Source of the DNA: Pseudomonadota bacterium
GTDB taxonomy: Bacteria > Pseudomonadota > Alphaproteobacteria > Rhizobiales > Beijerinckiaceae
Assembly (NCBI GenBank): GCA_020161575.1
Contig: JAIUNR010000008.1
Coordinates: 29,195 to 93,194, forward strand
DNA length: 64,000 nt
Direction: 5' to 3'
This document shows positions 17,196-49,194 of this stretch, in pieces; position 1 is the first letter of the stretch, and each line of letters begins with the position of its first letter. The translations under genes and the position numbers were made by a program. A model generated the notes under the pieces. It saw nothing but the letters and a program-made list of their open reading frames with translations, made no database searches and was not told where the DNA came from.

Positions 17196-17373
17196 TTTGC
17201 CCGAGTTATCCCCGCTCCCGATGGCCATGCTAGCCTGGGCTTGACTCGACTCAGCGGCTGAACCTTTCTTGTCACGCCAGTTTCCCGCGCAGCCCGGTTT
17301 TCGCGCGGTAACGGTTTGTGAGCGTTTCGTGCCCATTCTCCGTTATAAAGGGATTCCAACGCAAAGTGATTCG

Positions 17374-18591
17374 ATGAACCTTTCCGAGAGCAAGCCACAG
17401 CCCAGCGCCATCGACGCCGTCATCTCCGCGGATGCCGAGGGGTTGTCGCGTCAGCTTCAGGCGCTGCGGGCGCGCTTTTTCCCGCCCGAGGCGCAGAAGA
17501 CCCTGCGGCGTTTCACCTCCGGCGAGGCCGCGCGGCTGATCGGCGTTTCGGACAGCTACCTGCGCCAGCTCAGCCTGGCGGGAGAGGGGCCCGATCCCGA
17601 ATTGGGCGCGGGCGGACGCCGGCTCTACACGCTCGAGCAGATCAATCTCCTGCGCGAGAAGCTGGCGGGGCAGGGCGGCGCCAAGGCGCTTGGCTATTGG
17701 CCGCGCCGGCGCGACGGCGAACATCTGCAGGTGCTCGCCGTCGCCAATTTCAAGGGCGGCTCCGGCAAGACGACGACCACCGCGCATCTCGCGCAATATT
17801 TCGCCCTGCGCGGCTACCGTGTGCTCGCGGTGGATCTCGATCCGCAAGCCTCGCTCTCGACGCTGTTCGGCGTGCAGCCGGAATTCGATCTTTCCCCCAA
17901 TGACACGCTCTATGGCGCGATCCGCTACGATGAGGAAAGGCGGCCCTTGCGCGAGATCATCAAGCGCACCTATTTCGCGGGGCTCGATCTCGTGCCCGGC
18001 AATCTCGAACTGCATGAATTCGAGCATACCACGCCCAAGATTCTCGCCCAGCAGAAGCCCGGGGAAACGCCCTTCTTCGCCCGTATCGCCACCGCGCTCG
18101 CGGAAGTGGAGGCGGATTACGACATCGTGGTGATCGATTGCCCGCCCCAGCTCGGCTTTCTCACCCTGGGCGCGCTCTGCGCCGCGACGGGGCTGATCGT
18201 CACCGTGCATCCGCAGATGCTCGATGTCGCCTCGATGAGCCAGTTCCTGTTCATGACCTCGGATCTGCTCGCCGTGGTGCGCGAGGCGGGGGGCGATCTG
18301 AGCTTTGATTTCCTGCGCTATCTCATCACCCGCCACGAGCCCAATGACGGCCCGCAGGCGCAGATCGCGGCATTCCTGCGCACGCAATTCGGCGAGCGCG
18401 TGCTCACCAACGCCATGCTCAAATCCACCGCGATCGCCGATGCCGGGCTCACCAAGCAGACAATTTACGAGGTCGGCAGGGAGAATTTCTCGCGCCAGAC
18501 CTACGAGCGCGTGCTCGAAAGCCTCGATTCGGTCAATGGCGAGATCGAGGCGCTTGTGCGCCGCGCCTGGGGCAGGGGAGGGGAGAAATGA
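17374..18591 (+). CDS. repA: Plasmid partitioning ATPase RepA (ParA family)
   Basis: N-terminal HTH (FTSGEAARLIGVSDSYLRQL), deviant Walker A NFKGGSGKTTT, DLDPQASL, VIDCPPQLG; first gene of a repABC triad. Confidence 0.95.
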   Translation: MNLSESKPQPSAIDAVISADAEGLSRQLQALRARFFPPEAQKTLRRFTSGEAARLIGVSDSYLRQLSLAGEGPDPELGAGGRRLYTLEQINLLREKLAGQGGAKALGYWPRRRDGEHLQVLAVANFKGGSGKTTTTAHLAQYFALRGYRVLAVDLDPQASLSTLFGVQPEFDLSPNDTLYGAIRYDEERRPLREIIKRTYFAGLDLVPGNLELHEFEHTTPKILAQQKPGETPFFARIATALAEVEADYDIVVIDCPPQLGFLTLGALCAATGLIVTVHPQMLDVASMSQFLFMTSDLLAVVREAGGDLSFDFLRYLITRHEPNDGPQAQIAAFLRTQFGERVLTNAMLKSTAIADAGLTKQTIYEVGRENFSRQTYERVLESLDSVNGEIEALVRRAWGRGGEK

Positions 18592-19658
18592 ACCGCCGCC
18601 GCGATGATCTGCGTGCCCTGCTGATCGGCTCCGCCCCTGCGCCGGCGGCGGAAGCACCCCCTGCGCCGGAGGCGACGCCGCGCGCGGCGTCGGGGGCCGT
18701 CAAGGCGATGGGGTTGTCGCTGAGCCAACGGGCGCGCGAGGCGGAGGAAACCGCCCGCACGTTGGAGGAGACGCAAGCAGCCCTGACGCGGCTTCAGGCG
18801 GATATCGCGGCCGGGGCGCGCGTCGTGGAGCTTGATCCGGGGCTGGTCGATCCCTCTTTCGCGGCCGACCGTTTCGAGCTCGAGCCCGCCGAAGGCGCCG
18901 CCGATCCCGCTTTCGCGGCCTTCATCGAGGATATGCGGGTGCATGGCCAGCAGGTGCCGGTTCTCGTGCGTCCCAATCCGGGCGCCGAGGGGCGCTTCCA
19001 GCTCGCCTACGGGCATCGCCGCTGGCGCGCCGCGCGGGCTTTGGGCCAGCGTCTGCGCGCGGTCGTCAAGCCGCTTTCGGATGCCGATCTCGTGGTGGCG
19101 CAGGGCCAGGAAAACGCCCAACGGCGGGATCTGAGCTTCATCGAGAAGGCATTCTTCGCGCTCTCGCTGGATGACAAGGGGTTTGATCGCGCCACGCTCT
19201 GCGCCGCGCTCGCCGTGCAAAGCGCCGAAATCAGCCGGCTTCTGGCCGTGGCGCGGGCGGTGCCGCCTCGCCTCGTCGCGGCGATCGGGGCCGCGCCGAA
19301 GGCAGGCCGCCCGCGCTGGCTGGCGCTGGTCGACGCGCTGGCACAGCCGCGCGCGCAGACGCGCATCGATCGGGTTCTCGCCGATTCCGCCTTCCGGCGG
19401 GCAGAGAGCGACACGCGCTTTTCCATGGTTTTCGAAGCTTTGAGCCAGCCCGCGCCAATCGAAGCGCCGCAGGTCGTGCTGCGTACGCCCGGCGGCGCCC
19501 CGCTCGCGCGTCTCGATACGCGCGGGCGTGAGGCGCGTCTTGTCATCGATACGGCGCGGGCCCCTGATTTCGCCGCCCTGATCGCCGAACGCCTGCCCGC
19601 GCTTTATGCGGAATGGGCGCAGGCGCGCGGGGCAGATCCGTCAACCCAGAAAACCTGA
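18588..19658 (+). CDS. repB: Plasmid partitioning protein RepB (ParB family)
   Basis: GQQVPVLVRP, AYGHRRWRAA (ParB GxRR), QGQENAQRRDLSFIEKA; ATGA-coupled to repA. Confidence 0.94.
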   Translation: MNRRRDDLRALLIGSAPAPAAEAPPAPEATPRAASGAVKAMGLSLSQRAREAEETARTLEETQAALTRLQADIAAGARVVELDPGLVDPSFAADRFELEPAEGAADPAFAAFIEDMRVHGQQVPVLVRPNPGAEGRFQLAYGHRRWRAARALGQRLRAVVKPLSDADLVVAQGQENAQRRDLSFIEKAFFALSLDDKGFDRATLCAALAVQSAEISRLLAVARAVPPRLVAAIGAAPKAGRPRWLALVDALAQPRAQTRIDRVLADSAFRRAESDTRFSMVFEALSQPAPIEAPQVVLRTPGGAPLARLDTRGREARLVIDTARAPDFAALIAERLPALYAEWAQARGADPSTQKT

Positions 19659-19679
19659 AACCCAGGAGACCTGACCGGC

Positions 19680-19729
19680 AAAAGAAAAGGCCCCCGACGT
19701 TTCCACCGGAAGCCCTCTCATTGTGTAGC
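19680..19729 (-). ncRNA. Antisense counter-transcribed RNA (ctRNA/incA type) of the repABC replicon
   Basis: Lies in the repB-repC spacer; the minus strand reads GGGCTTCCGGTGGAAACGTCGGGGGCCTTTTCTTT (hairpin plus U-tract) downstream of a TTGACA/GATTCT promoter. Ends are approximate. Confidence 0.75.
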
Positions 19730-19735
19730 AGCTTG

Positions 19736-19764
19736 AGAATCCCACTTCCGCGAATCGCTGTCAA
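19736..19764 (-). promoter_or_regulatory. ctRNA promoter
   Basis: Minus strand TTGACA-GCGATTCGCGGAAGTGG(17)-GATTCT, the characteristic repABC ctRNA promoter layout. Confidence 0.8.
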
Positions 19765-19835
19765 GAGTCCCGTAAGGGAAACTGCCATTTCGGCGGGCGC
19801 TGATCCTTTGCCTCCTTTGATGAGGTAAAAGAACC

Positions 19836-21155
19836 ATGACGCGAGCAATGGTGACGACGCCTTTCGGGCGGCGATCGATCTCGCTTGGCCTGATCGCGAC
19901 GCAGGCGCAGGCGCGGGCGATCGAACCGGAGAAGACCATCCACAAATGGAAGGTTTTCCAGGCGATCACGGAAGCGAAGGACAGGCTCGGCCTGCCGGAT
20001 CGGGCGATCGCGGTGCTCTCCGCGCTTCTCTCGTTCCATCAGGAGACGACGCTTTCGGCGGGCGATCCGCTGATCGTCTTCCCCTCGAACGAGAAGCTCT
20101 GCCAGCGCGCCCATGGCATCGCCCCGGCGACGCTGAGGCGTCATCTCGCGGCGTTGGTCGAGGCGGGTATCGTCATCCGCCGCGACAGCCCGAACGGCAA
20201 GCGTTATGCGCGCCGCGGGCAGGATGGTGAGGTGAGCCTCGCCTTCGGCTTCGAGCTGACGCCCCTCGTCGCGCGCGCTGAAGAGTTCGAGGCGCTGGCG
20301 GCGGAAGTCGCGGCGGAGCGCCGCGTCCTGCGCCTTGCGCGCGAGCGCGTGACCCTCGCGCGACGGGATATCACCAAGATGATCCTGCTCGGTATGGAGG
20401 AGGCGCTGCCGGGGGATTGGGAGGGCCTGCACGCGCAATATCTGGCGCTTGTCGGACCTCTTCGGCGCTCCTCGACGGGGACTCAGTTGCAAGAGATTGC
20501 TGACGGGCTCGAAGGTTTCGCGCGGGAAATCCTCAATCATCTGGAACTCTTCGCGAAATCACGAAATCCAAGCGCCAATGAGTCTCAATCTGAGCGTCAC
20601 AAACAGAATTCAAATACCGAACCATCAGAATCTGAACCTGCTTTCGAAAAAGACAGGGGTGCGGAGCACGAGGCAGATCCTCAGAGTTCGGCGGTCCTGA
20701 AAAGCAGGGAAGGTGCCGAAGATATTCCGGCCGCGGATCCAGCATCGCCGGCAGAGATCTCACGCTCCGGCCTCGGCACGCCGTTGCCGATGGTGCTCGA
20801 AGCCTGCCCGGATATTCTCGATTACATTCCGGGTCGCGAGGGGCAGGGCGGCGATCCCGCGGGCTCCCGCGCGCCTGTTTGGGGCGAATTCCTCAAGGCC
20901 GCGGAGCTGGTGCGGGCGATGCTCGGGATTTCGCCGGATGCCTGGCGCGATGCGGTGGAAACCATGGGGCAGGCGGATGCCGCGATCGTCGTCGCGGCTA
21001 TCTTGCAGAAAGGCGACGAGGTGCGCTTCCCCGGCGGCTATCTGCGGGCGCTGACCGAGAAGAAGCGCGAAGGTCAGTTCTCCGTCGGGCCCATCCTCAT
21101 GGCGCTGATCGGCACAAGGCTCAAGGCGATGCGCGGCGGGCGGGGGCAGCCGTGA
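19836..21155 (+). CDS. repC: Replication initiator RepC; oriV expected in its internal AT-richer segment (~20520-20660)
   Basis: TTPFGRR N-terminus, LSALLSFH, VFPSNEKL, LRRHLAALVEAG, RRDSPNGKRYARR, NESQSERHKQNSN, LGISPDAW, GGYLRAL. Confidence 0.95.
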   Translation: MTRAMVTTPFGRRSISLGLIATQAQARAIEPEKTIHKWKVFQAITEAKDRLGLPDRAIAVLSALLSFHQETTLSAGDPLIVFPSNEKLCQRAHGIAPATLRRHLAALVEAGIVIRRDSPNGKRYARRGQDGEVSLAFGFELTPLVARAEEFEALAAEVAAERRVLRLARERVTLARRDITKMILLGMEEALPGDWEGLHAQYLALVGPLRRSSTGTQLQEIADGLEGFAREILNHLELFAKSRNPSANESQSERHKQNSNTEPSESEPAFEKDRGAEHEADPQSSAVLKSREGAEDIPAADPASPAEISRSGLGTPLPMVLEACPDILDYIPGREGQGGDPAGSRAPVWGEFLKAAELVRAMLGISPDAWRDAVETMGQADAAIVVAAILQKGDEVRFPGGYLRALTEKKREGQFSVGPILMALIGTRLKAMRGGRGQP

Positions 21156-40650: not shown

Positions 40651-41283
40651 CTATGCCGCAGGCTCCGCCGGCGGCGCGCCGAACAGCATCCGGATGTAGC
40701 GGCTCAGATGATCGACGCTTTCCTCGGCGATGGCAGGCCCGCCGGAGCATTTGGCGAGAATGAAGGCGCCCTGCAGCACGGCCTGGGTGTGAAGCGCGAG
40801 GCTCGCTGCGCTCCAGCCCGTCATCGAGCCGTCCGGCGTCCATCCGCGCTTGCGCATCGCCTCGGCGATATCAGGCTCCAAGGTCGTGGCATGACCGGAG
40901 ATCGAGGCATTGCAGGCCGCGCCGATCGCGGGGTGCTCGGCATAGACCTCCTGCACCATTGTTCCGACCAGGCAGGTGAACTCGGCCAGTTCGCCGCGCA
41001 GAATGTCGCGGCGGAACTGGATATAGGCGAGCAATCTCTCCATCGGGTCGTCAACACGATGATAGGGCGCTGCCGCGAAGAAGGCGCTCGTCGTCGCCGA
41101 CCAATGCTCGGCCGCGGCGACGCCGAGGGCTTCCTTGCTGGCGAAATGGTGAAAGAAGGCGCCCTTGGTCACGCCCGCCGCCGTGCATAGGTCGTCCACC
41201 GTCGTGGCCGTGAATCCCTTTTCCCGGACCAGCTTCAGGGTGGCTGCCAATATCTTTTCTCGGGCTGTTCCGGTGCGGGCCAT
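40651..41283 (-). CDS. TetR/AcrR-family regulator (NemR-like)
   Basis: REKILAATLKLVREKGFTATTVDDLCTAAGVTKGAFFHHFASKE HTH; CLVGTMVQE; QGAFILAK. Confidence 0.93.
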   Translation of the reverse strand: MARTGTAREKILAATLKLVREKGFTATTVDDLCTAAGVTKGAFFHHFASKEALGVAAAEHWSATTSAFFAAAPYHRVDDPMERLLAYIQFRRDILRGELAEFTCLVGTMVQEVYAEHPAIGAACNASISGHATTLEPDIAEAMRKRGWTPDGSMTGWSAASLALHTQAVLQGAFILAKCSGGPAIAEESVDHLSRYIRMLFGAPPAEPAA

Positions 41284-41310
41284 GACGATGATTCTCTGTT
41301 GCGATCATCA

Positions 41311-41328
41311 ATACCAACTGGTCGGTAT
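41311..41328. promoter_or_regulatory. Candidate TetR operator overlapping the minus-strand promoter
   Basis: ATACCAACTGGTCGGTAT imperfect palindrome sitting between minus-strand TTGACA (41332-41337) and TATTGA (41308-41313), about 30 bp upstream of the tetR start. Confidence 0.7.
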
Positions 41329-41497
41329 GTATGTCAATCGAAACTTCGCAACCGCCCACGATCCGCCAAGCGCTGGGCCCCAAGCGCTGGGCCCATGCCC
41401 TGATCCGCCGAGCCGGCGCCATGCTGCCTCGCGAACCGCCGGTGGGTCTGGGCGCGTTTCAGCATTGCGCGCTGTGCCGGTGCTTCCCGCCCCGCCA

Positions 41498-41701
41498 CTA
41501 CGCCCGTTTCTGCTTCTTCGGCCCGATGGTGGTGGGTTGAAGCACGCTGACGGTGTCGCTCGCGGGGAAAGTCTCCTTCAACGCCTTTTCGAGCTTGCTT
41601 TTCAGCGCGGCCTGTTCGGGGTCGGGCACGACATGCTTCTCGGGGTGCGTGTCCTTGAGGTCGAAGACCGATTCGACACCTTTGAGGGGTTTGCGTTTCA
41701 T
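41498..41701 (-). CDS. Small protein with ETFPASD motif (67 aa)
   Basis: MKRKPLKGVES...LEKALKETFPASDTVSVLQP; the L-x-E-T-F-P-A-S-D motif recurs in small alphaproteobacterial hypothetical proteins; GAGAG RBS. Confidence 0.6.
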   Translation of the reverse strand: MKRKPLKGVESVFDLKDTHPEKHVVPDPEQAALKSKLEKALKETFPASDTVSVLQPTTIGPKKQKRA

Positions 41702-41818
41702 GATGCTCTCCCGGCACTGAACACTGTCTCGCCGACAGCGTTGGAGACAAACGAGCGTGTGATTGTTTGGTTCCGAAAAAGCTTCGCCATGCACCGCCTT
41801 CATGAATCCCGAGGTGGT

Positions 41819-42961
41819 TCAGCCTGGCCTGAAACCATGGGTCATGCTGCGCCATAGCCATTCGAACGGGCCGAATGCGTGCCGCCTTAGCCAGAGAAGG
41901 CTGGCGACGGCGAAGAGCGCGTAGATGCCTGATCCAATCAGGATTCCCGTGCTTGTACTGATCCTGCCCATCAGACCGAGGCCATAGCCATAGAACAGGA
42001 ATCCGAGGACGAGCGAATAGAGCAGGTAGTTCGTGAAAGCCATGCGCCCGACCGCGCTGGACCAGCCAAGGAAAGGCCGCACGTGGTGCTGCCGGGCAAG
42101 CCAGGCGAAGAGCGCCGCATAGCCCAGCGCCACCAGCATGGAGCCGAGCGTGGCGTTGGCGAGCGCGCCGATTTTGCCGGGAAGAAGACAAAGCGCAAAA
42201 CCGGCGGCTGTCAGAAGCAATCCCGCCAGCGCCACGCGTCGATCGGGGTGCGTGAAGAGGCGCGCCGCGCCCAGACGCCAGAGCACGGCGCCGAGCAGCA
42301 GGGTCGCGAGCGTGCGCGGAAGCTGGTAAAGGTGGAGCGGACCGAAGCGCAGGATTTCATCGATCCTGAACGACAGAACCGTGAGGTAATCGCCTCGGCC
42401 ATATGCCGCCGCGGCCGCGTCGACATGGGCGGAAAGCGCGTCAAGGGGCGGCAGCCGGAAGGGCCGGAAAACCATCGGCAGCAGGATATAGAGCGCCAGG
42501 CAGGCGCATAGCGCGACGATCAGACCTCGCAGGCGCAGATGCAGCATTGGAACGAAAAGCAGGCCCGCAAGCGCGTATTCCGTCAGGATGTCGCCGTTCC
42601 AGAGCAGGAACAGGTGAACAAGCCCGAAAACGAGCAGGGCGAGCATGCGGCGATAGAGCATGCCGGTCCCCCTGCCGCGGGCGGCGAGGGAGTCGAACTG
42701 CATGGCCAGGCCGAAGCCGAGCAGCATGGTGAAAAGCATCAGGGTCTTGATGTGGATCGCGCCGAACAGCACCATACGGATGGCTTGATCCAGCCCCGAT
42801 CCCGCGCCCGGCCTTATCCAATGCTCGAAGGCGGGAACGCGGAACATCATTTCCAGATTGGCCAGCAGGACACCGAACAGGGCTGCGCCACGCAGCATGT
42901 CGAGCGTCTCGATGCGCGTTCGGGTGCCCGAAGCGGAAACGGGGGCGGTGCGATCTGTCAT
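41819..42961 (-). CDS. DUF418 (YeiB-like) integral membrane protein
   Basis: RIETLDMLRGAALFGVLLAN, LFTMLLGFG, RRMLALLVFGLVHL...WNGDIL, VGRMAFTNYL, GPFEWLWRSMT. Confidence 0.88.
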   Translation of the reverse strand: MTDRTAPVSASGTRTRIETLDMLRGAALFGVLLANLEMMFRVPAFEHWIRPGAGSGLDQAIRMVLFGAIHIKTLMLFTMLLGFGLAMQFDSLAARGRGTGMLYRRMLALLVFGLVHLFLLWNGDILTEYALAGLLFVPMLHLRLRGLIVALCACLALYILLPMVFRPFRLPPLDALSAHVDAAAAAYGRGDYLTVLSFRIDEILRFGPLHLYQLPRTLATLLLGAVLWRLGAARLFTHPDRRVALAGLLLTAAGFALCLLPGKIGALANATLGSMLVALGYAALFAWLARQHHVRPFLGWSSAVGRMAFTNYLLYSLVLGFLFYGYGLGLMGRISTSTGILIGSGIYALFAVASLLWLRRHAFGPFEWLWRSMTHGFRPG

Positions 42962-43100
42962 CGTCGGTCCTTGGCTGTGCCCGGGATCAGTGCCAGGCTC
43001 CCGAATGGCGCGCGGCGCCGGCCAGCCTTTCCACCGGAAGGTGGCGCCGCGTCGGCGCCCGCGCCATTACGACACATGGGCTAGTACGCGGGCAGGCACG

Positions 43101-45266
43101 TTACCGGCCGGACGCTGCTCCCGGCGCGGATGCCGAAGTTGCGCGGAATCCTGCGGAATTCGCTGGCTGCAACCGAATGACGCGATCGGTCGCGGCCAGC
43201 GTCGAGGTGCGATGCGCGATCACGATCCGCGTCATGGGCAGGGCACGCACGGCCCTGTTGATCATGGCCTCGTTCTCGGGATCGAGATGACTGGTCGCCT
43301 CGTCGAGCAGCAGGATCGCGGGGCGGCGGTAGAGCGCGCGCGCGAGCACGATGCGCTGGCGCTGGCCACCCGAAAGAGAGCTGCCCATATCGCCCACCAG
43401 GGTTTCGTATCCCATCGGCATCGTGAGGATTTCGTCGTGAATCGCGGCGAGGCGGGCACAGCCGGTGAGATGTTCGATATCCGGCTCAGGATCGAAGGCG
43501 CAGATATTATCGGCGATCGAGCCGGCGAACAGACGGTCATCCTGCAGGACGCAGCCGATCCGGCGACGGTAAGCCGACATGGTCAGGGAGGAGACCGGGA
43601 CATTGTCGACCAGAACCTGTCCCTCGCTCGGCTGGGCGAGACCCGCGAGGATCTTGAGCAAGGTCGTCTTGCCTGCTCCTGACGGGCCGGCAATGCCGAC
43701 GCATTCGCCCGGCCTCACGTCAAAACTGAGATTGCTCAGGATATCGGGCTCGTTATCCGCATAACGGAAGCGGATGGCCCGCACGGAGAGGCTGGCAGCG
43801 CCACCGGATTTCCAGCCGGCGATGGGATTGTCCTGGCCTCCTTCGCTCCCTTCTGGCTCGGCAAGCGCGATATCGGCAATACGCTCGCCATGGAGGGAGA
43901 GCATCATGAATTGCTGCGCGGCATCGACGAGGCTGTTCATGCGCTGCGCGAACTGATCCTTGTAGGCCAGGAAGGCGATGAAGACGCCGACGGAGAAATC
44001 GGCTGCCACGACGCCGCGAATACCGAGATAGATGAGCAGGATCCGGTCGAGCCCGAAAATGACCTGTCCGGCGGCGTCGATGCCGGCATCGAGCTTGCCG
44101 ACCCGCATCTGCGCATTGATGTGCTCGACCAGATGATTGATCCATGCGCCGCGGCGGCGCTCCTCAAGGTTGAGCACCTTGACGCTCGCGATGCCGCGCG
44201 CGGTTTCCATGAAATGGGTTTGCTGAAGCGCGGCGTGGACGATCGCATCCTCGGATTTCGCGCGATACAGCAGATGTGTCGCAACGCGAATGCCGATGAA
44301 CAGCGAAACGCTGACAAGCGGGATGATGACCAGCCACCCCCCATAAAACGCCATCATGCCGAGGAGGGCGATGGACATGACGCCATCGAGCAGCGCGCTG
44401 ATCGTGCTCGAGGTCAGGGTCTGCCTTGCGGTATCGAGCGAGCCGAACCGGGATACGACATCACCGACATGCCGCCTTTCGAAAAAGCCCATCGGCAGGC
44501 GGAGCAGATGATCGAACAGCGCGACTTTCCATTGCAGGACCAGGCTGCTGCCGAATTTGAGGGTGGCCCAGCTTCGCACAAGCGTCGCGGCGACCTGAAG
44601 AAAGAGAAGCACGGCGAGGCTGAGCGCGATCAGGGTCAGCAGATCGAGATCCGCGGCGACCACGACCTCGTCGAGCGCGATCTGGAACCCGATCGGCATG
44701 GCGATGATCGCAAGCTCGATCAGCAGGGAAATCGCGAGCACCTGAACGAGCGTGGGGGTGATGCCGCGCGTGCGGCGAATGAGATCGAAAAAGCCGATCC
44801 CGGTCCGCTCATCCTTCTGCTCGAAGGTGCTGGTGGGCCAGGCTTCAAGCGCGACGCCGGTGAAGCGGCGCGACACCTCGTCGAGCTTCACCACTTTCCG
44901 GCCCACGGCAGGATCATGGATCACGACCTCGCGCGCGCGTACTTCCGTGAGGACGACGAAATGATTGTGATTCCAGTGCAGGATGCACGGAAGGCGGAGC
45001 CCCGCGAGATCGCCGATATCAAGGCGCACGGCGCGTGTCGCGAGTTTCAGCTCCGCGCCCAGCCGGACGAGATCGCGCAGGGTCATGCCCTTGAGCGAGG
45101 CGTTGAAGCGCCGCCTGAGGCCGGGCAGATCCAGCGCATGGCCGTGACGTCCCGCGATCATCGCGAGGCAGGCGAGGCCGCATTCCGCGGCTTCGCTCTG
45201 GCGTATGACCGGCGTATCGGCGAAAAGGCCGCCGGTAATGCGCCGGGCGAGATCAGCGCCGGTCAC
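43101..45266 (-). CDS. Peptidase-containing ABC transporter (C39 PCAT; CvaB/RaxB-like)
   Basis: QSEAAECGLACL (catalytic Cys), LPCILHWNHNHFVVL (His), TM domain, [26 protein letters not shown]; GTG start with GGAG RBS. Confidence 0.95.
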   Translation of the reverse strand: MTGADLARRITGGLFADTPVIRQSEAAECGLACLAMIAGRHGHALDLPGLRRRFNASLKGMTLRDLVRLGAELKLATRAVRLDIGDLAGLRLPCILHWNHNHFVVLTEVRAREVVIHDPAVGRKVVKLDEVSRRFTGVALEAWPTSTFEQKDERTGIGFFDLIRRTRGITPTLVQVLAISLLIELAIIAMPIGFQIALDEVVVAADLDLLTLIALSLAVLLFLQVAATLVRSWATLKFGSSLVLQWKVALFDHLLRLPMGFFERRHVGDVVSRFGSLDTARQTLTSSTISALLDGVMSIALLGMMAFYGGWLVIIPLVSVSLFIGIRVATHLLYRAKSEDAIVHAALQQTHFMETARGIASVKVLNLEERRRGAWINHLVEHINAQMRVGKLDAGIDAAGQVIFGLDRILLIYLGIRGVVAADFSVGVFIAFLAYKDQFAQRMNSLVDAAQQFMMLSLHGERIADIALAEPEGSEGGQDNPIAGWKSGGAASLSVRAIRFRYADNEPDILSNLSFDVRPGECVGIAGPSGAGKTTLLKILAGLAQPSEGQVLVDNVPVSSLTMSAYRRRIGCVLQDDRLFAGSIADNICAFDPEPDIEHLTGCARLAAIHDEILTMPMGYETLVGDMGSSLSGGQRQRIVLARALYRRPAILLLDEATSHLDPENEAMINRAVRALPMTRIVIAHRTSTLAATDRVIRLQPANSAGFRATSASAPGAASGR

Positions 45267-46554
45267 GCGCGGCTCCTTCCGAGTTCGAGACGGATTCCTT
45301 CAGGCTGTAGAGCGGTTCGAAGATCCATTGATAGAGGGGGCGTGTCTCCGCCAGGATATGGGCTTCCGCGAGCATGCCGCTTTGCAGCGCTTCGGGCCGG
45401 CCATAGGCGGTGACGAAGGGCTGATCAGGCTGGACCGTGATGCGGTAGAGGGATGCGCCGCGCGCGCCTTCCGCCATGGCCACGTTGAGCTGGGTCACCT
45501 CTTCCGGGAGCAGGGTGGCGCGCGAGATCAGCGTGACACTCCCCGGATACTGGCCGAATTTCTGATAGGGAAAGGCCTGATAGCGCAGCAGGACGCGGGC
45601 CTCTTCGCGCACGAACCCGATCGCGGTGCTCGGCGCGAGCAATTGCACGACAAGCGGGCGATCCGCAGGGACGATGGTGAGCAGCGGTTTGCCCACGGTG
45701 ACCGTCTGCCCGACCAGCGTCGAGATGCTCGTGATCCGCCCGTCGCGCGGCGCGACGATGCGCAGCTCGCGGCGCGCTTCGTTTTCGGAAATCTGCTGCT
45801 GGATATCGAGGATCTGGCGTCGGACTTCGGCGCGGCGCGTATCGGCTTGAAGATCGAAGCTCGCGAGCTGATTGCGCGCTTCCGCGAGCCGCATTTCCAC
45901 CTGGATGCGCTCGCGCCGCAGGGCTTCGAGCTGGACACGGTAGCTGGTGAGGGTTTCCTGCCGCGTCTCGTGGTCGCGGGCGGTGGCCATGCCACGCTCG
46001 GCCAGATTGCGGATACGCTCGGTGGTGATTTCCATCTGCGCGGTGGTGCGCTCGGAAAGCTGGATCTGCGCATCGGCCTGGGCCAGTTCCCGCGTGCCGC
46101 GGGCGATCCTGTCCTGCAGCGCCAGCTTGTCGGTACGGTCGAGGTTGGCCTGGCGCTCGAGACCCAATTCCAGCTCTTCGCCCTTCCGCCTGAGAAGGGC
46201 GGTTACCGCGCTTTGCGTGTTGCCGAGCGATGTCGTGCTGTCCACGGAGAGGACATAGAGAATGTCACCCCGCTTCACGAGATCGCCGTCGCGGACGCGC
46301 AGCTCGGAGATCCAGCCGCTCTGGGGGGCGGAAAGCCGCGCCAACCCCTCCGCGGGCAGGACGACGCCCGTGACACGCACGCGCCGGGTGTAGTTCCCGA
46401 ACACGAGCAGCAGGACAATCACCACGACAAAGAATAGCGACGCGATGGCAAAAGCCCTTCGCGATGGCGAGGCGTCGATCGACGGTTGACCGATCCAGGC
46501 GGTGCGCGCCGCTTCCATCGATTCGGGCCGGAACAGGGGCGGTCTGGTCGTCAT
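45253..46554 (-). CDS. HlyD-family membrane fusion protein (CvaA/RaxA-like)
   Basis: PPLFRPE N-terminus, single TM, YTRRVRVTG, coiled coil, IVAPRDG, LRYQAFPYQKFG, PLYQWIFEPL; overlaps the PCAT start. Confidence 0.94.
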   Translation of the reverse strand: MTTRPPLFRPESMEAARTAWIGQPSIDASPSRRAFAIASLFFVVVIVLLLVFGNYTRRVRVTGVVLPAEGLARLSAPQSGWISELRVRDGDLVKRGDILYVLSVDSTTSLGNTQSAVTALLRRKGEELELGLERQANLDRTDKLALQDRIARGTRELAQADAQIQLSERTTAQMEITTERIRNLAERGMATARDHETRQETLTSYRVQLEALRRERIQVEMRLAEARNQLASFDLQADTRRAEVRRQILDIQQQISENEARRELRIVAPRDGRITSISTLVGQTVTVGKPLLTIVPADRPLVVQLLAPSTAIGFVREEARVLLRYQAFPYQKFGQYPGSVTLISRATLLPEEVTQLNVAMAEGARGASLYRITVQPDQPFVTAYGRPEALQSGMLAEAHILAETRPLYQWIFEPLYSLKESVSNSEGAARDRR

Positions 46555-46651
46555 CCCGTCAACTCAAGCACTAAAAGCGGCGCATGGCGCGCCGCTTTCA
46601 TAGGAAGGACGCCGCGGGGTGGCAGCGGTCCTTTCACGCTCGCCTCGTGGA

Positions 46652-46849
46652 TCAGAGGCTGATTCCGTTGCGGTAGTCCCAGCGGACAATCGAAGCGCCC
46701 TGCGAATTGGTGCAGCGGGTGACGGTCACATTCGGCTTCACGGTCACGGTGCAGGTCCAGGTCTGGCCGGCGCCGCCAGCCACCAGGTCCAGCGCGTTCA
46801 TATCCAGTTCCTGGATCGCGCCGTCGGCGAAAGAGGTGTTGTTGGTCAT
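46652..46849 (-). CDS. Double-glycine leader precursor peptide B (26-aa leader + 39-aa core, 2 Cys)
   Basis: ELDMNALDLVAGG|AGQTWTCTVTVKPNVTVTRCTNSQGASIVRWDYRNGISL; L(-12), L(-7), V(-4), GG; GGAG RBS; directly upstream of the HlyD/PCAT genes. Confidence 0.85.
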   Translation of the reverse strand: MTNNTSFADGAIQELDMNALDLVAGGAGQTWTCTVTVKPNVTVTRCTNSQGASIVRWDYRNGISL

Positions 46850-46992
46850 TTCGTTTTCTCCAGTTTTTGGGGGGCTGTGCAGGTCTCGCCGCCCGGCCCG
46901 GAGACAACGCCTCCTGCGATCGCGGCAAGTTCAGCCTCCGTCAGGAGGTAAACGCCCAGGCTCTCGGCCTTGTCGTTGGGATGATCGGTCAA
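46846..46992 (-). CDS. Double-glycine leader precursor peptide A (probable TTG start; 28-aa leader + 20-aa core)
   Basis: GGAG RBS 7 nt before TTG; LLTEAELAAIAGG|VVSGPGGETCTAPQKLEKTK; its stop overlaps the ATG of peptide B. Confidence 0.7.
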   Translation of the reverse strand: MTDHPNDKAESLGVYLLTEAELAAIAGGVVSGPGGETCTAPQKLEKTK

Positions 46993-47351
46993 TGCTCTTC
47001 TCCATTCCGGGCGCCGGTTCTCCGGCACCATGCGGCAACCAGCGAATCCGAAATGGCCCGCTGGAGCACACGATTCCCCGGTAGAGAAAAGCGTTCCCCG
47101 GAGGAACTAGTGCAAATCGACTAGTGCGCCGCCGGAGGAGGAAAGCTCCCTGAATTCAAAGGGGTTTACGAAGCAACTAAGTCATCTGTACTAGCCGAGG
47201 CGGGTAATGAACCAGCCACGACCTGCGATCGCTCACCTGTGCTAATCGATCCCGGGGGCAGAGTTTCTTATGAATCGGGACGGATCTGCCCTCCGTTGGT
47301 CATTTTTCTCGGAGGATTGGGTTCCTGAATAACAAGAATGGGAGAGAAAAA

Positions 47352-47579
47352 ATGAAACATTCCAACATCATCGCGCTGACCGAGAACGACCTTGATGCCG
47401 TCAGCGGCGGCACGCTGACCTTCGGCAATGGCACCACTGGAGGGTATGGCTCCAACGGCGCTTTCGCGCGCGGCTCCGCGAGCTGGACGAACAGCAGCGG
47501 CTCGTTCTCCACCAGCGTATCGTTCAACTTCGATGGTGGCAGCGGCTTCAACAAGGTCTCCTTTACCTGGAGGTTCTGA
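47352..47579 (+). CDS. Double-glycine leader precursor peptide C (20-aa leader + 55-aa Gly/Ser/Phe-rich core)
   Basis: MKHSNIIALTENDLDAVSGG|TLTFGNGTTGGYGSNGAFARGSASWTNSSGSFSTSVSFNFDGGSGFNKVSFTWRF; GGAGAG RBS; own terminator. Confidence 0.87.
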   Translation: MKHSNIIALTENDLDAVSGGTLTFGNGTTGGYGSNGAFARGSASWTNSSGSFSTSVSFNFDGGSGFNKVSFTWRF

Positions 47580-47623
47580 TTTTAGCAGGGCTTCCCGCCC
47601 CGCGATTCCTGCCTTTGCCTGCG

Positions 47624-47658
47624 AACCACGCATCCCATGCGATGCGTGGTTTTTTCTT
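47624..47658 (+). terminator. Intrinsic terminator of peptide C
   Basis: AACCACGCATC-CCATGC-GATGCGTGGTT, a perfect 11-bp stem followed by TTTTCTT. Confidence 0.82.
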
Positions 47659-47976
47659 GCGGGGACCTTGCCGGCCGCGCGCTGTGGCGTTCTGATGATG
47701 GCGGAACCTTTTTCTTTGCGTTCCCGCTCAGCAGAGACAAGGATAGTTTGTAGCAAAACTAATCGTAAATCCTGGCGGCACGCACCCGGAACAAGGTATC
47801 TATTCTGATTCCGTACTTGCATCGGGAAGAGCGTTGGAGGAAAGGTAGCGCCGTAAACAGGCTCGCCTTTCCTGCCTTCTCCCGCATTTCGACACCGGAT
47901 GCTTCAGGGCATGGTCGCAGAAGGCCTGAAGACGAACAACCGGCCTTCCGGTCGGTAATCCGGCAGGGGAACCGAG

Positions 47977-49194
47977 ATGAATTTCCACACACAAAAAGAC
48001 CAGACAAACTCCAGGATCATCTCCAGCTTCGGCGATATCGAAGCCCTGCCGGACCGTGACATGCCGGTGGTGACGATGTTCAGCGGCGGGCTGGACAGCA
48101 CCTATCTCCTTCTGCGCCTCCAACAGGCAGGCTTCCGCAATGTCGAGGCTGTCGCGGTCAATATGGGCGAGCCGATCGACGCGGCCGCGATGAGCGGGAC
48201 CGCCGCGCGTTTCGGCGCGCGCTTCACCTATCTCGAAGCGCGCGATCTCTTCATCGAGAAGGCCGTCAAGCCCGCGATCCGCGCGCAGGCGAAGTATCAT
48301 GGCATGTATCCGCTCAGCAGTTCGCTGAGCCGCCCGGTGATCGCGGAAACCGTTGTCCGCCATGCCTCGGCGCTCGGCTCCACCCTGCTGCTGCATACCG
48401 CCAATCTCTCGCAGAACAGCCTGCCGCGCCTCAACAACAGCATTGTCCGCTTCGGCTTCAAGGGCGCTTTCGGCAGCCCCTACGTCTATTCCGCGCTCTC
48501 GCGCGAGCGCAAGGCGGAAGCTCTCGCCGGAGCCGGCCTGAGCTTCATCGCCGATCGCCGGCTGAGTGGTGACGAAAACCTCTGGTGCCGCGAATTCGAA
48601 TCCGGCCCGCTCGATGACCCCGAGGATTTCGTGATTCCCGAGGACAGTTTCCGCTGGACCCGCAAGGGCGAGCCTCCCGCGCCTGAAGAACTGGCGCTTC
48701 GCTTCGAAGATGGCGCGCTGGTCGCGGTCGATGGCAAGCCGGTCGCGCTCATCGACGCAATCGCCGCGCTCAACACGCGGGTCGGCAGGTTCGGTTTCGG
48801 TCGTTATGTCGGGCTCGAACATATCGCGAGCGGCGAGAAGGTGCTGGAGGTGCGCGAGGCGCCTGCCGCGATGATCATCATGGACGCCCTGCGCTTGCTC
48901 GAATGCGCCTCGCTGAGCGCCGAGGCGATCGCGCTCAAGCAGAAGCTGGAGCAGGATTGGGTGCAGGAAGCCATTGCCGGGCGTTGGGGCGGCAAGGTCC
49001 ATGCCATGTGCGAGGCCGCGATCGCCTCGGCCCTCGAAGGTGTGGGCGGCTCCGTCACCTATATGCTCGATGCGCAGCGCTTCATGCCTCGCGCCATCGT
49101 CGCCGATCGGCCGGTCTATATCCGCGACCGCGATCTATGGGAGTACCAGAAGGCGAAATCCGGCTGCGCGGGCGCCATGACCGGCGGTGCCTGA
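47977..49194 (+). CDS. Argininosuccinate-synthase-like (PP-loop) enzyme, divergent paralog
   Basis: [11 protein letters not shown]-loop; [53 protein letters not shown] are collinear with ArgG, but [13 protein letters not shown] replaces HGATGKGNDQVRF. Confidence 0.85.

What the first reader, a model, noticed from the sequence alone, without database searches (positions are those of the whole stretch)
41819..47658. Three dissimilar double-glycine peptides served by one C39 transporter: candidate new microcin/bacteriocin-like system
Seen: PCAT with intact catalytic Cys/His, HlyD adaptor, two precursors in the same operon and a third divergent one with its own RBS and terminator. All three leaders share L(-12)/L(-7)/[IV](-4)/GG while the cores are unrelated. 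No recognisable RiPP maturase or small immunity gene is adjacent. Established: CvaAB/RaxAB-type systems cleave GG leaders and export through TolC. I do not recognise these cores as known peptides. Inference: a multi-peptide antibacterial or signalling arsenal in an alphaproteobacterium.
Basis: partly seen in the sequence, partly recalled or inferred. Interest (0 to 1): 0.8.

Follow-up and report, generated by a model that had tools for sequence, protein, structure and literature searches.

The report
Regulated three-peptide export locus on plasmid
A plasmid of this alphaproteobacterium carries a pump that cuts and exports three small double-glycine peptides. Two of them belong to rare, undescribed peptide families that recur in other Alphaproteobacteria beside the same pump, a sensor kinase/regulator pair and a shared DNA control site.

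Summary
Window 41819-47658 holds a C39-peptidase ABC transporter with intact Gln/Cys/His/Asp. It also holds a HlyD adaptor and three real small genes with canonical double-glycine leaders. Their cores are 39 aa (pepA), 20 aa (pepB) and 55 aa (pepC). No curated family or known bacteriocin matches the cores.

New here:
- pepA and pepB are not orphans. pepA belongs to a rare two-Cys family (GG|xT[WY]TCTV...C). pepB belongs to a family with a near-invariant box just after the cleavage site (GG|VTEGPDGxGCTEP) and a variable tail.
- The two families lie side by side next to orthologous exporters in Phyllobacterium, a Hyphomicrobiales MAG and a metagenome contig.
- These loci normally also carry a histidine kinase and a LuxR-type response regulator, and share an 18-bp palindrome, CTAGTNCA-N2-TGNACTAG.
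- Three copies of that palindrome lie between pepB and pepC. These are 3 of only 5 strong matches in the 3.2-Mb genome.
- The kinase/regulator orthologues sit unlinked on another contig. Like the pump, they are absent from 40 relatives.
- pepC has no homologue, but its substitutions show purifying selection.
- The adjacent argininosuccinate-synthase-like gene is not peptide-linked elsewhere.

Most likely this is a regulated, microcin-like multi-peptide export locus. Antibacterial activity is untested.

The parts
41819..42961 (-). DUF418 (YeiB-like) polytopic membrane protein, 380 aa. It lies downstream of the PCAT on the same strand. Candidate self-protection or accessory protein; membership of the system is inferred only.
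   Evidence: Pfam DUF418 E=1e-30. About 8-9 hydrophobic segments. It is the only DUF418 in the genome and is absent from all related PCAT loci.
43067..43084 (.). Weak operator-like palindrome TTACGACACATGGGCTAG, between the PCAT stop and the DUF418 start.
   Evidence: PWM score 12.5 bits. In locus L114 a strong site occupies the same position, right after the PCAT and in front of a 76-aa membrane protein.
43101..45266 (-). Peptidase-containing ABC transporter (PCAT), 721 aa: C39 peptidase, six-helix ABC membrane domain and ATPase.
   Evidence: Pfam C39, ABC_membrane and ABC_tran. Best NCBIfam model is the NHLP bacteriocin exporter, below its cut-off. Catalytic Gln23/Cys29/His/Asp align with 6mpz and ComA.
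45253..46554 (-). HlyD-family periplasmic adaptor, 433 aa.
   Evidence: Pfam HlyD_3 and Biotin_lipoyl_2. NCBIfam type_I_hlyD E=6e-36.
46572..46600 (-). 12-bp G+C-rich hairpin followed by UUUU, between pepA and hlyD. Probable attenuating terminator that raises the precursor:transporter ratio.
   Evidence: RNA fold of 46555-46651(-): -44.3 kcal/mol, z=-3.0. The hairpin is unchanged in the 98%-identical strain although its flanks carry 11 substitutions.
46652..46849 (-). pepA precursor, 65 aa. Leader 1-26 ends LDLVAGG. The 39-aa core is AGQTWTCTVTVKPNVTVTRCTNSQGASIVRWDYRNGISL, with the two family-invariant Cys at 33 and 46.
   Evidence: ORF and GGAG ribosome-binding site. Homologues in L025 (58% identity), L021, L028, L113, L114 and protein-library clusters P0029-P0039. 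The AF2 model has a leader helix plus a three-stranded sheet, with core pLDDT 74-79.
46846..47031 (-). pepB precursor. The likely start is the TTG at 46992 (48 aa); the ATG at 47031 would give 61 aa. The leader ends ELAAIAGG. The 20-aa core is VVSGPGGETCTAPQKLEKTK, with one Cys. It is a divergent member of the GG|VTEGPDGxGCTEP-box family and is translationally coupled to pepA (ATGA).
   Evidence: Family of about two dozen clusters. Adjacent to pepA-family genes in L021, L025 and L114.
47107..47124 (.). Operator palindrome CTAGTGCAAATCGACTAG, about 115 nt upstream of the pepB TTG.
   Evidence: 15.3 bits with a PWM built only from other taxa.
47177..47194 (.). Operator palindrome CTAAGTCATCTGTACTAG, in the middle of the divergent intergenic region.
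   Evidence: 17.1 bits; rank 3 in the whole genome.
47228..47245 (.). Operator palindrome ATCGCTCACCTGTGCTAA, about 107 nt upstream of the pepC ATG.
   Evidence: 16.6 bits; rank 4 in the whole genome. None of 20,000 dinucleotide shuffles of the 359-bp spacer gave two or more such sites.
47352..47579 (+). pepC precursor, 75 aa. Leader MKHSNIIALTENDLDAVSGG. The 55-aa core is rich in Gly/Ser/Asn/Thr and aromatic residues, has no Cys and ends KVSFTWRF. It is restricted to this species.
   Evidence: ORF, ribosome-binding site and GC3 0.82. 6 of 7 substitutions against strain L009 are at third codon positions. No homologue found.
47623..47658 (+). Intrinsic terminator of pepC: 12-bp stem followed by TTTTTT.
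   Evidence: z=-3.8.

Best explanation
This is a plasmid-borne, transcriptionally regulated export locus for three ribosomal peptides. It is the Gram-negative, class II microcin-type counterpart of a multi-bacteriocin island.

Proposed mechanism:
1. pepB and pepA are transcribed together and translationally coupled. A leaky terminator reduces read-through into hlyD, the PCAT gene and possibly DUF418.
2. pepC is transcribed divergently from the same control region.
3. The PCAT recognises the amphipathic leader (L-12, L-7, V/I-4). Its C39 domain cuts after Gly-Gly, and the ATPase drives the cores through the HlyD adaptor and one of the two TolC-like channels encoded elsewhere in the genome.
4. 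Transcription is probably switched on by a LuxR/GerE-type response regulator. It would bind the three 18-bp palindromes between pepB and pepC. A membrane-embedded hybrid histidine kinase would phosphorylate it. In this genome both genes sit unlinked on contig C4, whereas in related loci they sit beside the exporter.
5. Secreted pepA is a small disulfide-stapled beta-sheet peptide. pepC is a Gly/Ser/aromatic beta-rich peptide. pepB carries the family's conserved N-terminal box and a short cationic tail.
6. The cores most likely act against competing bacteria. pepB is either the partner of pepA in a two-peptide toxin or the secreted signal that feeds back on the kinase.

What is shown: gene content, catalytic residues, leaders, family membership, linkage patterns, operator enrichment.

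What is inferred: cleavage, export route, regulation by the C4 pair, disulfide, antibacterial activity, and the roles of pepB and DUF418.
For: Exporter and substrates:
- Domains and catalytic residues are intact.
- All three peptides have canonical leaders, ribosome-binding sites and a coding signature.
- Two TolC-family genes are present in the genome.

Peptide families:
- The pepA family appears in 6 independent loci plus protein-library clusters, with invariant TCTV and two invariant Cys.
- The pepB family comprises about two dozen clusters sharing GG|VTEGPDGxGCT(E/D)P.
- pepA-type and pepB-type genes are adjacent in the window, L021, L025 and L114.
- pepB-type genes overlap or abut Gly-rich '...VRYVWK' peptides in Paracoccus pFER3 and L107.

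Context of related loci:
- Eleven of the twelve related loci read for context (L019, L021, L023, L025, L105, L106, L107, L110, L111, L113, L114) carry HlyD plus a PCAT. The twelfth (L112) has an outer-membrane factor, an adaptor and an unscored 679-aa gene.
- Nine have a histidine kinase together with a response regulator with a GerE domain. L114 shows the kinase only, at the end of the locus.
- L113 and L112 show no such pair. L113 has only a lone GerE-domain gene and a distant PAS kinase.
- Several also hold hydrophobic Gly/Ala-rich class-II-like peptides and small membrane proteins that look like immunity genes.

Regulation:
- The own genome has an orthologous kinase (57% identity) and regulator (68%) on C4.
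- Neither the kinase nor the PCAT occurs in 40 relatives, including 22 congeners.
- A PWM built only from non-window sites finds strong palindromes beside peptide, HlyD or regulator genes in loci not used for training: L020, L023, L024, L028, L114.
- In the own genome, 3 of the 5 hits at or above 15 bits fall in the 359-bp pepB/pepC spacer. None of 20,000 shuffles gave two or more.
- The attenuator and terminator hairpins are conserved.
Against: - No experiment or transcript data.
- No small immunity gene lies next to any of the three peptides. DUF418 is unique to this locus, so its role is a guess.
- The three operator copies here score 15-17 bits, against 20-26 bits in other taxa. No site lies near the C4 kinase/regulator genes.
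- The operator sites were first picked by eye.
- The kinase/regulator pair is unlinked. Its assignment rests on orthology and co-occurrence only.
- pepC has no relatives, so nothing comparative supports its function.
- The AF2 models are of moderate (pepA, 64) or poor (pepC, 53) confidence.
Confidence: 0.6

Rival explanations
1. The peptides are primarily signals, not toxins. On this reading the locus is a peptide quorum-sensing or cell-cell communication system. The exported cores, especially the conserved-box pepB family, are sensed by the membrane kinase and control other traits.
For: - Tight linkage of these peptide/exporter loci to a histidine kinase plus LuxR-type regulator across taxa.
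- No immunity gene lies beside pepA/pepB in the window, L021 or L025.
- The pepB cores are short and often cationic, like Gram-positive inducing peptides.
- The kinase has a membrane-embedded sensor with no large periplasmic domain.
Against: - Three to eight different peptides per locus is more than signalling needs.
- Related loci contain typical hydrophobic bacteriocin-like peptides followed by small membrane proteins.
- A signal is expected to vary at its receptor-contacting part, yet pepB's most conserved part is invariant across orders.
- The two readings are not exclusive. Bacteriocin loci commonly include one pheromone.
Confidence: 0.2
2. The locus is a modified-peptide (RiPP) cluster. 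The adjacent argininosuccinate-synthase-related PP-loop enzyme (47977-49194), or enzymes of the neighbouring NRPS-PKS operon, would modify pepC or the Cys/Thr-rich cores before export.
For: - argG_rel lies 397 bp downstream of pepC on the same strand, and the arrangement is kept in all near-identical contigs.
- pepA's leader weakly resembles lantibiotic leaders. L_biotic_typeA scores 19.4 bits, below its cut-off.
- The cores are rich in Thr, Ser and Cys.
Against: - A strong terminator separates pepC from argG_rel.
- In Rhizobium and Agrobacterium plasmids argG_rel pairs with a DMT transporter and a 2OG-Fe dioxygenase and has no peptide or PCAT nearby.
- None of the pepA- or pepB-family loci has an argG_rel, LanM/LanB, radical-SAM or YcaO gene as a constant neighbour.
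- No operator site lies near argG_rel.
Confidence: 0.07
3. The exported peptides act on a eukaryotic host or partner rather than on bacteria. The model would be RaxX-type peptides, which are secreted by a PCAT and perceived by plants.
For: - Several homologous loci come from plant-associated Rhizobiales: Phyllobacterium, Rhizobium and Ensifer nodule isolates.
- The RaxX system also combines a PCAT, an adaptor and a two-component system (from my own knowledge).
Against: - Other members come from Paracoccus (bioreactor), Erythrobacter, Halomonas and farmland or unnamed metagenomes.
- There is no sulfotransferase or other host-mimicry hallmark.
- There is no similarity to RaxX/PSY.
Confidence: 0.05
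4. One or more of the small ORFs are chance open frames in a G+C-rich genome, and the transporter exports something else.
For: High-GC genomes produce many spurious ORFs. pepC has no homologue.
Against: - All three have ribosome-binding sites, canonical leaders and gene-like GC3.
- 9 of 11 substitutions are at third codon positions.
- pepA and pepB are conserved as proteins across orders.
- pepC has its own terminator and a proximal operator.
Confidence: 0.02

Closest known systems
Class II microcin systems of Enterobacterales (colicin V/MccV: cvaC-cvi-cvaA-cvaB plus TolC)
   Same: - Unmodified or disulfide-only peptides under 10 kDa with a double-glycine leader.
- A C39-ABC exporter, a HlyD-type adaptor and a TolC supplied in trans.
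- Plasmid location.
- The N-terminal domain of this PCAT closely resembles CvaB (from memory). By test it aligns with the LahT and ComA proteases.
   Different: - No sequence similarity of any core to known microcins.
- No small immunity gene next to the structural genes.
- Three unrelated substrates.
- Control by a two-component system with a dedicated palindromic operator, rather than the iron or stationary-phase control typical of microcins.
- Alphaproteobacterial host.
Three-component (peptide pheromone / histidine kinase / response regulator) class II bacteriocin loci of Gram-positive bacteria (pln, blp, spp, cbn)
   Same: - Several double-glycine peptides, often in translationally coupled pairs.
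- One PCAT plus an accessory protein.
- A kinase with a polytopic membrane sensor.
- Regulator-binding repeats upstream of every peptide operon.
- One short cationic double-glycine peptide that could serve as inducer.
   Different: - The regulator is LuxR/GerE-type, not LytTR.
- The kinase is a hybrid HisKA kinase, not HPK10.
- The operator is an 18-bp palindrome rather than direct repeats.
- Gram-negative envelope, hence HlyD and TolC.
- In this genome the regulators are unlinked.
- The pheromone role of pepB is untested.
Cyanobacterial double-glycine 'bacteriocin' clusters (Wang, Fewer & Sivonen 2011, PMC3140520; NCBIfam NF038167 CTB family)
   Same: - Multiple double-glycine-leader peptides with Gly-rich cores beside a C39-ABC/HlyD exporter.
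   Different: pepC matches NF038167 only weakly (16 bits against a cut-off of 32, mostly in the leader). The peptide families, regulator type and operator are different.
Moraxella catarrhalis McbABCI plasmid bacteriocin (PMC2761928) and the Xanthomonas RaxX-RaxAB system
   Same: Gram-negative, PCAT plus adaptor with a double-glycine-leader substrate. Plasmid-borne in the case of Mcb. Associated with a two-component system in the case of Rax.
   Different: Single substrate in each. McbC has a cognate immunity protein McbI. RaxX needs tyrosine sulfation. No sequence similarity to pepA, pepB or pepC.

Membership tests
Peptidase-containing ABC transporters (PCAT; CvaB/ComA/LahT type) | N-terminal C39 papain-like domain with catalytic Cys and His (plus Asp and the oxyanion Gln), not the inactive C39-like domain of HlyB | tested here: met
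   Pfam Peptidase_C39 E=2e-35 over 131 of 133 positions. In the alignment to 6mpz and ComA, Gln23, Cys29, the His of NHFVVL and the Asp of IHDP fall on the catalytic columns.
Peptidase-containing ABC transporters (PCAT; CvaB/ComA/LahT type) | ABC exporter membrane domain and nucleotide-binding domain in the same polypeptide | tested here: met
   ABC_membrane E=3e-28 and ABC_tran E=7e-34. Full-length matches to PCAT1 and ComA structures.
Peptidase-containing ABC transporters (PCAT; CvaB/ComA/LahT type) | Cognate substrates with a double-glycine leader encoded nearby | tested here: met
   Three ORFs with L(-12), L(-7), V/I(-4) and GG lie within 2.3 kb.
Peptidase-containing ABC transporters (PCAT; CvaB/ComA/LahT type) | Leader cleavage coupled to export | not testable with these tools
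   Needs biochemistry or LC-MS.
Class II microcins | Gram-negative producer; PCAT plus membrane-fusion protein plus a TolC-like outer-membrane factor | tested here: met
   PCAT and HlyD are adjacent. Two OEP-family genes lie at C1:606.7 kb and C2:7.8 kb. Which one is used is unknown.
Class II microcins | Dedicated immunity gene adjacent to each structural gene | tested here: inconclusive
   No small membrane ORF lies beside pepA, pepB or pepC. The only membrane protein is DUF418, downstream of the PCAT and unique to this locus.
Class II microcins | Sequence relationship to a characterised microcin | tested here: not met
   No Pfam or NCBIfam bacteriocin/microcin family reaches its cut-off. The weak hits are confined to leaders.
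Class II microcins | Antibacterial activity against related bacteria | not testable with these tools
   Needs a bioassay.
Pheromone-regulated (three-component) bacteriocin loci | Histidine kinase and response regulator dedicated to the locus | tested here: inconclusive
   Not in the window. Orthologues of the locus-linked pair of L025/L021 lie on C4:378031-380300. Like the PCAT, they are absent from 40 relatives.
Pheromone-regulated (three-component) bacteriocin loci | Shared regulator-binding element upstream of the peptide operons | tested here: met
   Three 18-bp palindromes lie in the pepB/pepC spacer. The same element is found in 9 other loci. Binding itself is not shown.
Pheromone-regulated (three-component) bacteriocin loci | LytTR-type regulator and HPK10-type kinase, as in pln/blp/com | tested here: not met
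   The regulator is Response_reg plus GerE. The kinase is HisKA plus HATPase_c plus a receiver domain.
Pheromone-regulated (three-component) bacteriocin loci | A secreted peptide that induces the locus | not testable with these tools
   pepB is a candidate only.
RiPPs with a leader-dependent maturase (lanthipeptides, sactipeptides, etc.) | A modifying enzyme conserved next to the precursor genes | tested here: not met
   No LanM/LanB/rSAM/YcaO gene lies in the window region or as a constant neighbour in related loci. argG_rel is linked to DMT and dioxygenase genes elsewhere.
pepA family (defined here) | Double-glycine leader, then x-T-[WY]-[TSN]-C-T-V, 9-11 residues, a second Cys, [VYT]-[ND]-x-[QET]-x-G, and an aromatic-rich tail; 30-42 aa core | tested here: met
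   Alignment A1: invariant T, TCTV, two Cys and Tyr. The profile search retrieves 7 small-peptide clusters.
pepB family (defined here) | Double-glycine leader followed at once by V-T-E-G-P-D-G-x-G-C-T-[ED]-P, then a variable tail | tested here: met
   The window copy reads VVSGPGGETCTAP. G, P, G, C, T and P are kept, but the acidic residues are lost. It scores 73 bits against the family profile. It is a divergent member.

The most novel reading that the evidence does not exclude
Alphaproteobacteria may possess a Gram-positive-style peptide quorum-sensing circuit that has not been described.

The proposed circuit:
- The conserved-box pepB family (GG|VTEGPDGxGCTEP plus a variable tail) would be an exported autoinducer.
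- It would be sensed by the membrane-embedded (or CHASE2) histidine kinase.
- The LuxR-type regulator would then activate the CTAGTNCA-N2-TGNACTAG operators in front of a changing cargo of bacteriocin-like peptides (the pepA family, the '...VRYVWK' family, orphans such as pepC) and their exporter.

In this genome the circuit would be split between the chromosome (sensor and regulator) and a repABC plasmid (signal, toxins, pump).
Probability: 0.25. Interest if true: 0.8.

Novelty: new variant of a known kind. Interest (0 to 1): 0.6.

Why it matters
Double-glycine peptide export through a PCAT, HlyD and TolC is well known. Almost all characterised Gram-negative examples are enterobacterial microcins, of which only about ten are validated.

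What this locus adds:
- It points to two conserved, unnamed peptide families. It also points to a conserved regulatory module (kinase, LuxR-type regulator, 18-bp operator) spread across Hyphomicrobiales, Rhodobacterales and Sphingomonadales. I found no description of it in the searchable literature or in Pfam/NCBIfam.
- It offers small, synthesisable peptides (20, 39 and 55 aa) whose activity, partner dependence (pepA with pepB) and possible autoinducer role can be tested directly.
- It offers a ready-made promoter/operator system for regulated peptide secretion in Alphaproteobacteria.
- If pepB proves to be a signal, it would be a rare case of peptide-based quorum sensing in Gram-negative bacteria.

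Tried and rejected
- **Word-index protein searches with pepA and pepC alone.** They returned only the window's own cluster and near-identical strains.
- **Six-frame search of 60 relatives with pepC.** No match was better than E of about 0.07.
- **tblastn of pepC against 72,556 plasmids.** No match.
- **pepC core against 112 double-glycine peptides from related loci.** Nothing significant. The best was 30% over 53 aa to a Gly-rich '...VRYVWK' peptide, at E=0.06 without composition correction. I therefore rejected homology and keep only a compositional likeness.
- **argG_rel as a peptide maturase.** Rejected on context.
- **Rhizobium leguminosarum 'hits' to pepB (E=5-9).** At the locus examined (H21) the match lies inside a 233-aa hypothetical protein. 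I discarded all of them.
- **Two of three class-level hits to the pepB profile (G795).** Judged spurious on inspection.
- **Foldseek of the pepA model against the PDB.** No match below E=1.
- **AF2 model of pepC.** Too poor to use, pLDDT 53.
- **Rfam scan of 41200-48100.** Nothing.
- **Sigma-70 promoter scan.** Found none.
- **Six literature searches.** None found a paper on these peptides, motifs or this alphaproteobacterial module. The library excludes most subscription journals, so absence there is weak evidence.
- **A second PCAT or peptide cluster next to the C4 kinase/regulator.** None. The neighbours are PNPase, an MFS transporter, a chemoreceptor and FadB-like genes.

Full report
**1. 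What is there**

The region 41819-47658 contains, on the minus strand:
- pepB (46846-46992, or to 47031 if the upstream ATG is used).
- pepA (46652-46849).
- A HlyD-family adaptor (45253-46554).
- A 721-aa ABC transporter with an N-terminal C39 peptidase (43101-45266).
- A DUF418 membrane protein (41819-42961).

On the plus strand, divergent from pepB, lies pepC (47352-47579), followed by a strong terminator at 47623-47652.

The transporter has Peptidase_C39, ABC_membrane and ABC_tran domains. Its first 160 residues align with the solved double-glycine proteases LahT150 (6mpz) and ComA. Gln23, Cys29, the His of NHFVVL and the Asp of IHDP fall on the catalytic columns. It is therefore an active-type PCAT, not a HlyB-like exporter with a dead domain.

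The three leaders each have L(-12), L(-7), V/I(-4) and GG.

For pepB I prefer the in-frame TTG at 46992, which has GGAG 7 nt upstream, over the ATG at 47031, which has no Shine-Dalgarno sequence. The pepB stop overlaps the pepA start (ATGA).

**2. Are the small genes real?**

- GC3 is 0.85 (pepA), 0.69 (pepB) and 0.82 (pepC), close to the roughly 0.8 of neighbouring genes.
- A contig from another sample (L009) is 98% identical. Of 7 substitutions in pepC, 6 are at third codon positions. Of 4 in pepA, 3 are. The flanking spacers change at up to 11%.
- pepA and pepB are conserved as proteins in other orders (section 3).
- A 12-bp hairpin followed by UUUU lies between pepA and hlyD (46572-46600, z=-3.0). 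It is untouched by the strain differences around it. It looks like the attenuator commonly found between bacteriocin structural genes and transporter genes.

**3. The cores are not known peptides, but two of them have families**

No Pfam or NCBIfam model reaches its cut-off on any of the three. The weak hits (lantibiotic leader, CTB bacteriocin, class IIb leader) lie in the leaders. Single-sequence searches found only this species.

Reading the flanks of orthologous PCAT genes changed the picture.

*pepA family.*
- Homologues: a Hyphomicrobiales MAG (L025, 58% identity), the Phyllobacterium zundukense plasmid (L021), Rhizobium sp. HT1-10 (L028), two metagenome contigs (L113, L114) and clusters in the protein library.
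- All share GG|x-T-[WY]-x-C-T-V, a second Cys 12-14 residues on (13 in the window copy), and a Tyr-rich tail.
- Only 7 small-peptide clusters turned up among 1.84 billion representatives, so the family is rare.
- An AF2 model from a three-sequence alignment gives a leader helix and a three-stranded sheet. The two Cys sit on neighbouring strands (overall pLDDT 64, core 74-79). That fits a disulfide staple but does not prove one. Foldseek found nothing similar.

*pepB family.*
- A profile search found about two dozen clusters in Paracoccus, Phyllobacterium, Erythrobacter insulae and metagenomes.
- They share an almost invariant box directly after the cleavage site, GG|VTEGPDG(K/R)GCT(E/D)P. A tail of 8-43 residues follows, variable in sequence and often cationic or Pro-rich.
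- The window's copy (VVSGPGGETCTAP...) is a divergent member.
- Sampling 400 alphaproteobacterial species found one further convincing member, so the family occurs in well under 1% of species.

*pepC.* It has no detectable relative. It resembles in composition only the Gly/Ser/Asn/aromatic peptides of related loci.

**4. Linkage patterns**

- pepB-type genes sit next to pepA-type genes in the window, L021, L025 and L114.
- In Paracoccus ferrooxidans pFER3 and L107 they overlap or follow Gly-rich peptides ending ...VRYVWK or ...YYRW.
- In Sphingomonadales-type loci they occur singly or in tandem among other peptide genes. In three of these four loci the gene just upstream encodes a '...PPEPTxQDYID' peptide.
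- pepB is therefore a recurrent companion of varied cargo peptides.
- Eleven of the twelve related loci read for context (L019, L021, L023, L025, L105, L106, L107, L110, L111, L113, L114) have HlyD plus a PCAT. The twelfth (L112) has an outer-membrane factor, an adaptor and an unscored 679-aa gene.
- Nine carry a histidine kinase together with a response regulator with a GerE (LuxR-type) domain. L114 shows the kinase only, at the end of the locus.
- L113 and L112 show no such pair. L113 has only a lone GerE-domain gene and a distant PAS kinase.
- The kinase is a hybrid with about five transmembrane segments in the Hyphomicrobiales/Rhodobacterales-type loci, and a CHASE2 kinase in the Sphingomonadales type.
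- Several loci also hold hydrophobic Gly/Ala-rich class-II-like peptides and small two-helix membrane proteins that look like immunity genes.

**5. The missing regulators and a shared operator**

The window has no kinase or regulator next to the exporter. The genome does encode orthologues of the L025 pair (57% and 68% identity) in the same divergent arrangement on contig C4:378031-380300. Their neighbours are chromosomal-type genes: PNPase, MFS, a chemoreceptor and FadB. Neither this kinase nor the PCAT is present in 40 relatives, 22 of them in the same genus. The two appear to have arrived together.

In the spacers of the related loci I noticed an 18-bp palindrome, CTAGTNCA-N2-TGNACTAG.
- A weight matrix was built from 8 sites in L019, L021, L025 and L107 only.
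- It finds strong sites (17-25 bits) next to peptide, HlyD or regulator genes in loci not used for training: L020, L023, L024, L028 and L114.
- In the window's 3.19-Mb genome only 5 positions score 15 bits or more. Three of them lie in the 359-bp spacer between pepB and pepC, at 47107, 47177 and 47228.
- In 20,000 dinucleotide shuffles of that spacer, 16 gave one such site and none gave two.
- The outer sites lie about 115 nt and 107 nt upstream of the pepB and pepC start codons. That is within the 87-167 nt range I measured by hand in seven other loci from the site positions and the gene starts.
- A weaker match (12.5 bits, 43067) lies between the PCAT stop and DUF418. In L114 a strong site occupies the equivalent position, before a 76-aa membrane protein.

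Caveats: the sites were first chosen by eye, the window's copies are weaker than those elsewhere, and no site lies near the C4 genes.

**6. Neighbours that are probably not part of it**

- The gene after pepC (47977-49194) belongs to NCBIfam NF038212, 'argininosuccinate synthase-related protein' (538 bits against a cut-off of 425). The true argG is on C7.
- In Rhizobium and Agrobacterium plasmids this enzyme sits with a DMT transporter and a 2OG-Fe dioxygenase, and in some it is fused to the dioxygenase. No peptide or PCAT is nearby. It occurs in 4 of the 400 other sampled genomes of the phylum.
- It is separated from pepC by the terminator and has no operator. I read it as a small-molecule enzyme, perhaps tied to the NRPS-PKS operon that starts at 49233.
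- DUF418 is unique to this locus and to this genome. It is a candidate immunity or accessory protein by position only.
- The replicon is a repABC plasmid. RepA, RepB and RepC lie at 17269-21155.
- Two TolC-family genes lie elsewhere in the genome.

**7. Mechanism and comparison**

The best-supported model is a microcin-type export locus under two-component control. Details are in the Best explanation section.
- It works like CvaAB/TolC-dependent class II microcins and, in its regulation, like the pln/blp loci of Gram-positive bacteria.
- It fails membership tests for both on specific points: no relationship to known microcins, no adjacent immunity gene, and a GerE-type rather than LytTR-type regulator.
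- It is not a recognisable RiPP cluster.
- Whether the peptides kill, signal or both cannot be decided here.
- The role of pepB is the most interesting open point. It could be the second half of a two-peptide toxin or an autoinducer. Its conserved N-terminal box with a variable tail recalls the conserved N-terminal box of pediocin-like bacteriocins (a comparison from my own knowledge).

**8. Limits**

The literature searches found nothing on these families, but the library omits most subscription journals. The organism's name is not known to me. The kinship tables place it in the same order as Rhizobium-like genomes.

Noticed in passing
window 47977-49194 (+): Argininosuccinate-synthase-related protein (NCBIfam NF038212, 538 bits); the true argG is on contig C7. 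In Rhizobium, Mesorhizobium and Agrobacterium plasmids the same family sits in a DMT transporter / argG_rel / 2OG-Fe dioxygenase module, fused to the dioxygenase in Rhizobium sp. 007. Its product is unknown. Here it stands alone between the peptide locus and the NRPS-PKS operon.
   Followed up: partly
own genome, contig C4:378031-380300 (locus L108 10032-12301): A hybrid histidine kinase (about 5 transmembrane segments, HisKA, HATPase, receiver) and a divergent GerE-type response regulator. They are orthologous to the pairs that flank PCAT/peptide loci in other Alphaproteobacteria. They are embedded among chromosomal genes and absent from 40 relatives.
   Followed up: yes
own genome, C1:37795-37812 and C11:49985-50002: The two best genome-wide matches to the operator matrix (21.8 and 18.5 bits) lie outside the window in AT-rich spacers. 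One is upstream of a 213-aa membrane protein. The other lies between a small hydrophilic ORF and a superoxide-dismutase-like gene. They could be further regulon members or chance hits.
   Followed up: partly
window 47352-47579 (core end KVSFTWRF): The C-termini of pepC (..VSFTWRF) and of Gly-rich peptides in related loci (..YQVTYYRW, ..GIEVRYVWK) are alternating aromatic/hydrophobic strands with a basic residue. This is reminiscent of outer-membrane-protein beta-signals. An earlier first-stage note raises the BamA-mimic idea. I did not test it.
   Followed up: no
L019 12167-12883; L107 2781-3120: A further undescribed double-glycine peptide family: Gly-rich, with ...NGWSL...G(I/V)xVRYVWK at the C-terminus. 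It is found in Paracoccus ferrooxidans pFER3 and a metagenome contig. Each copy is overlapped or followed by a pepB-family gene.
   Followed up: partly
L112 3314-10434: Short-box pepB variants (GG|VTEGGCI.., GG|IIDGGCI..) lie next to a 381-aa protein with no Pfam hit, an NHLP-like 110-aa precursor, an outer-membrane factor, a HlyD and a PCAT. This may be a modified-peptide version of the system.
   Followed up: no
window 41498-41701 (-): A 67-aa Lys-rich hydrophilic ORF (GC3 0.81) between the TetR gene and DUF418. It is called as a gene in a near-identical contig, has no family hit and is absent from related loci.
   Followed up: partly
window 17269-21155 (+): A repA-repB-repC replication/partition operon. 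This confirms that the 101-kb contig is a repABC plasmid carrying both the peptide locus and the NRPS-PKS cluster.
   Followed up: yes
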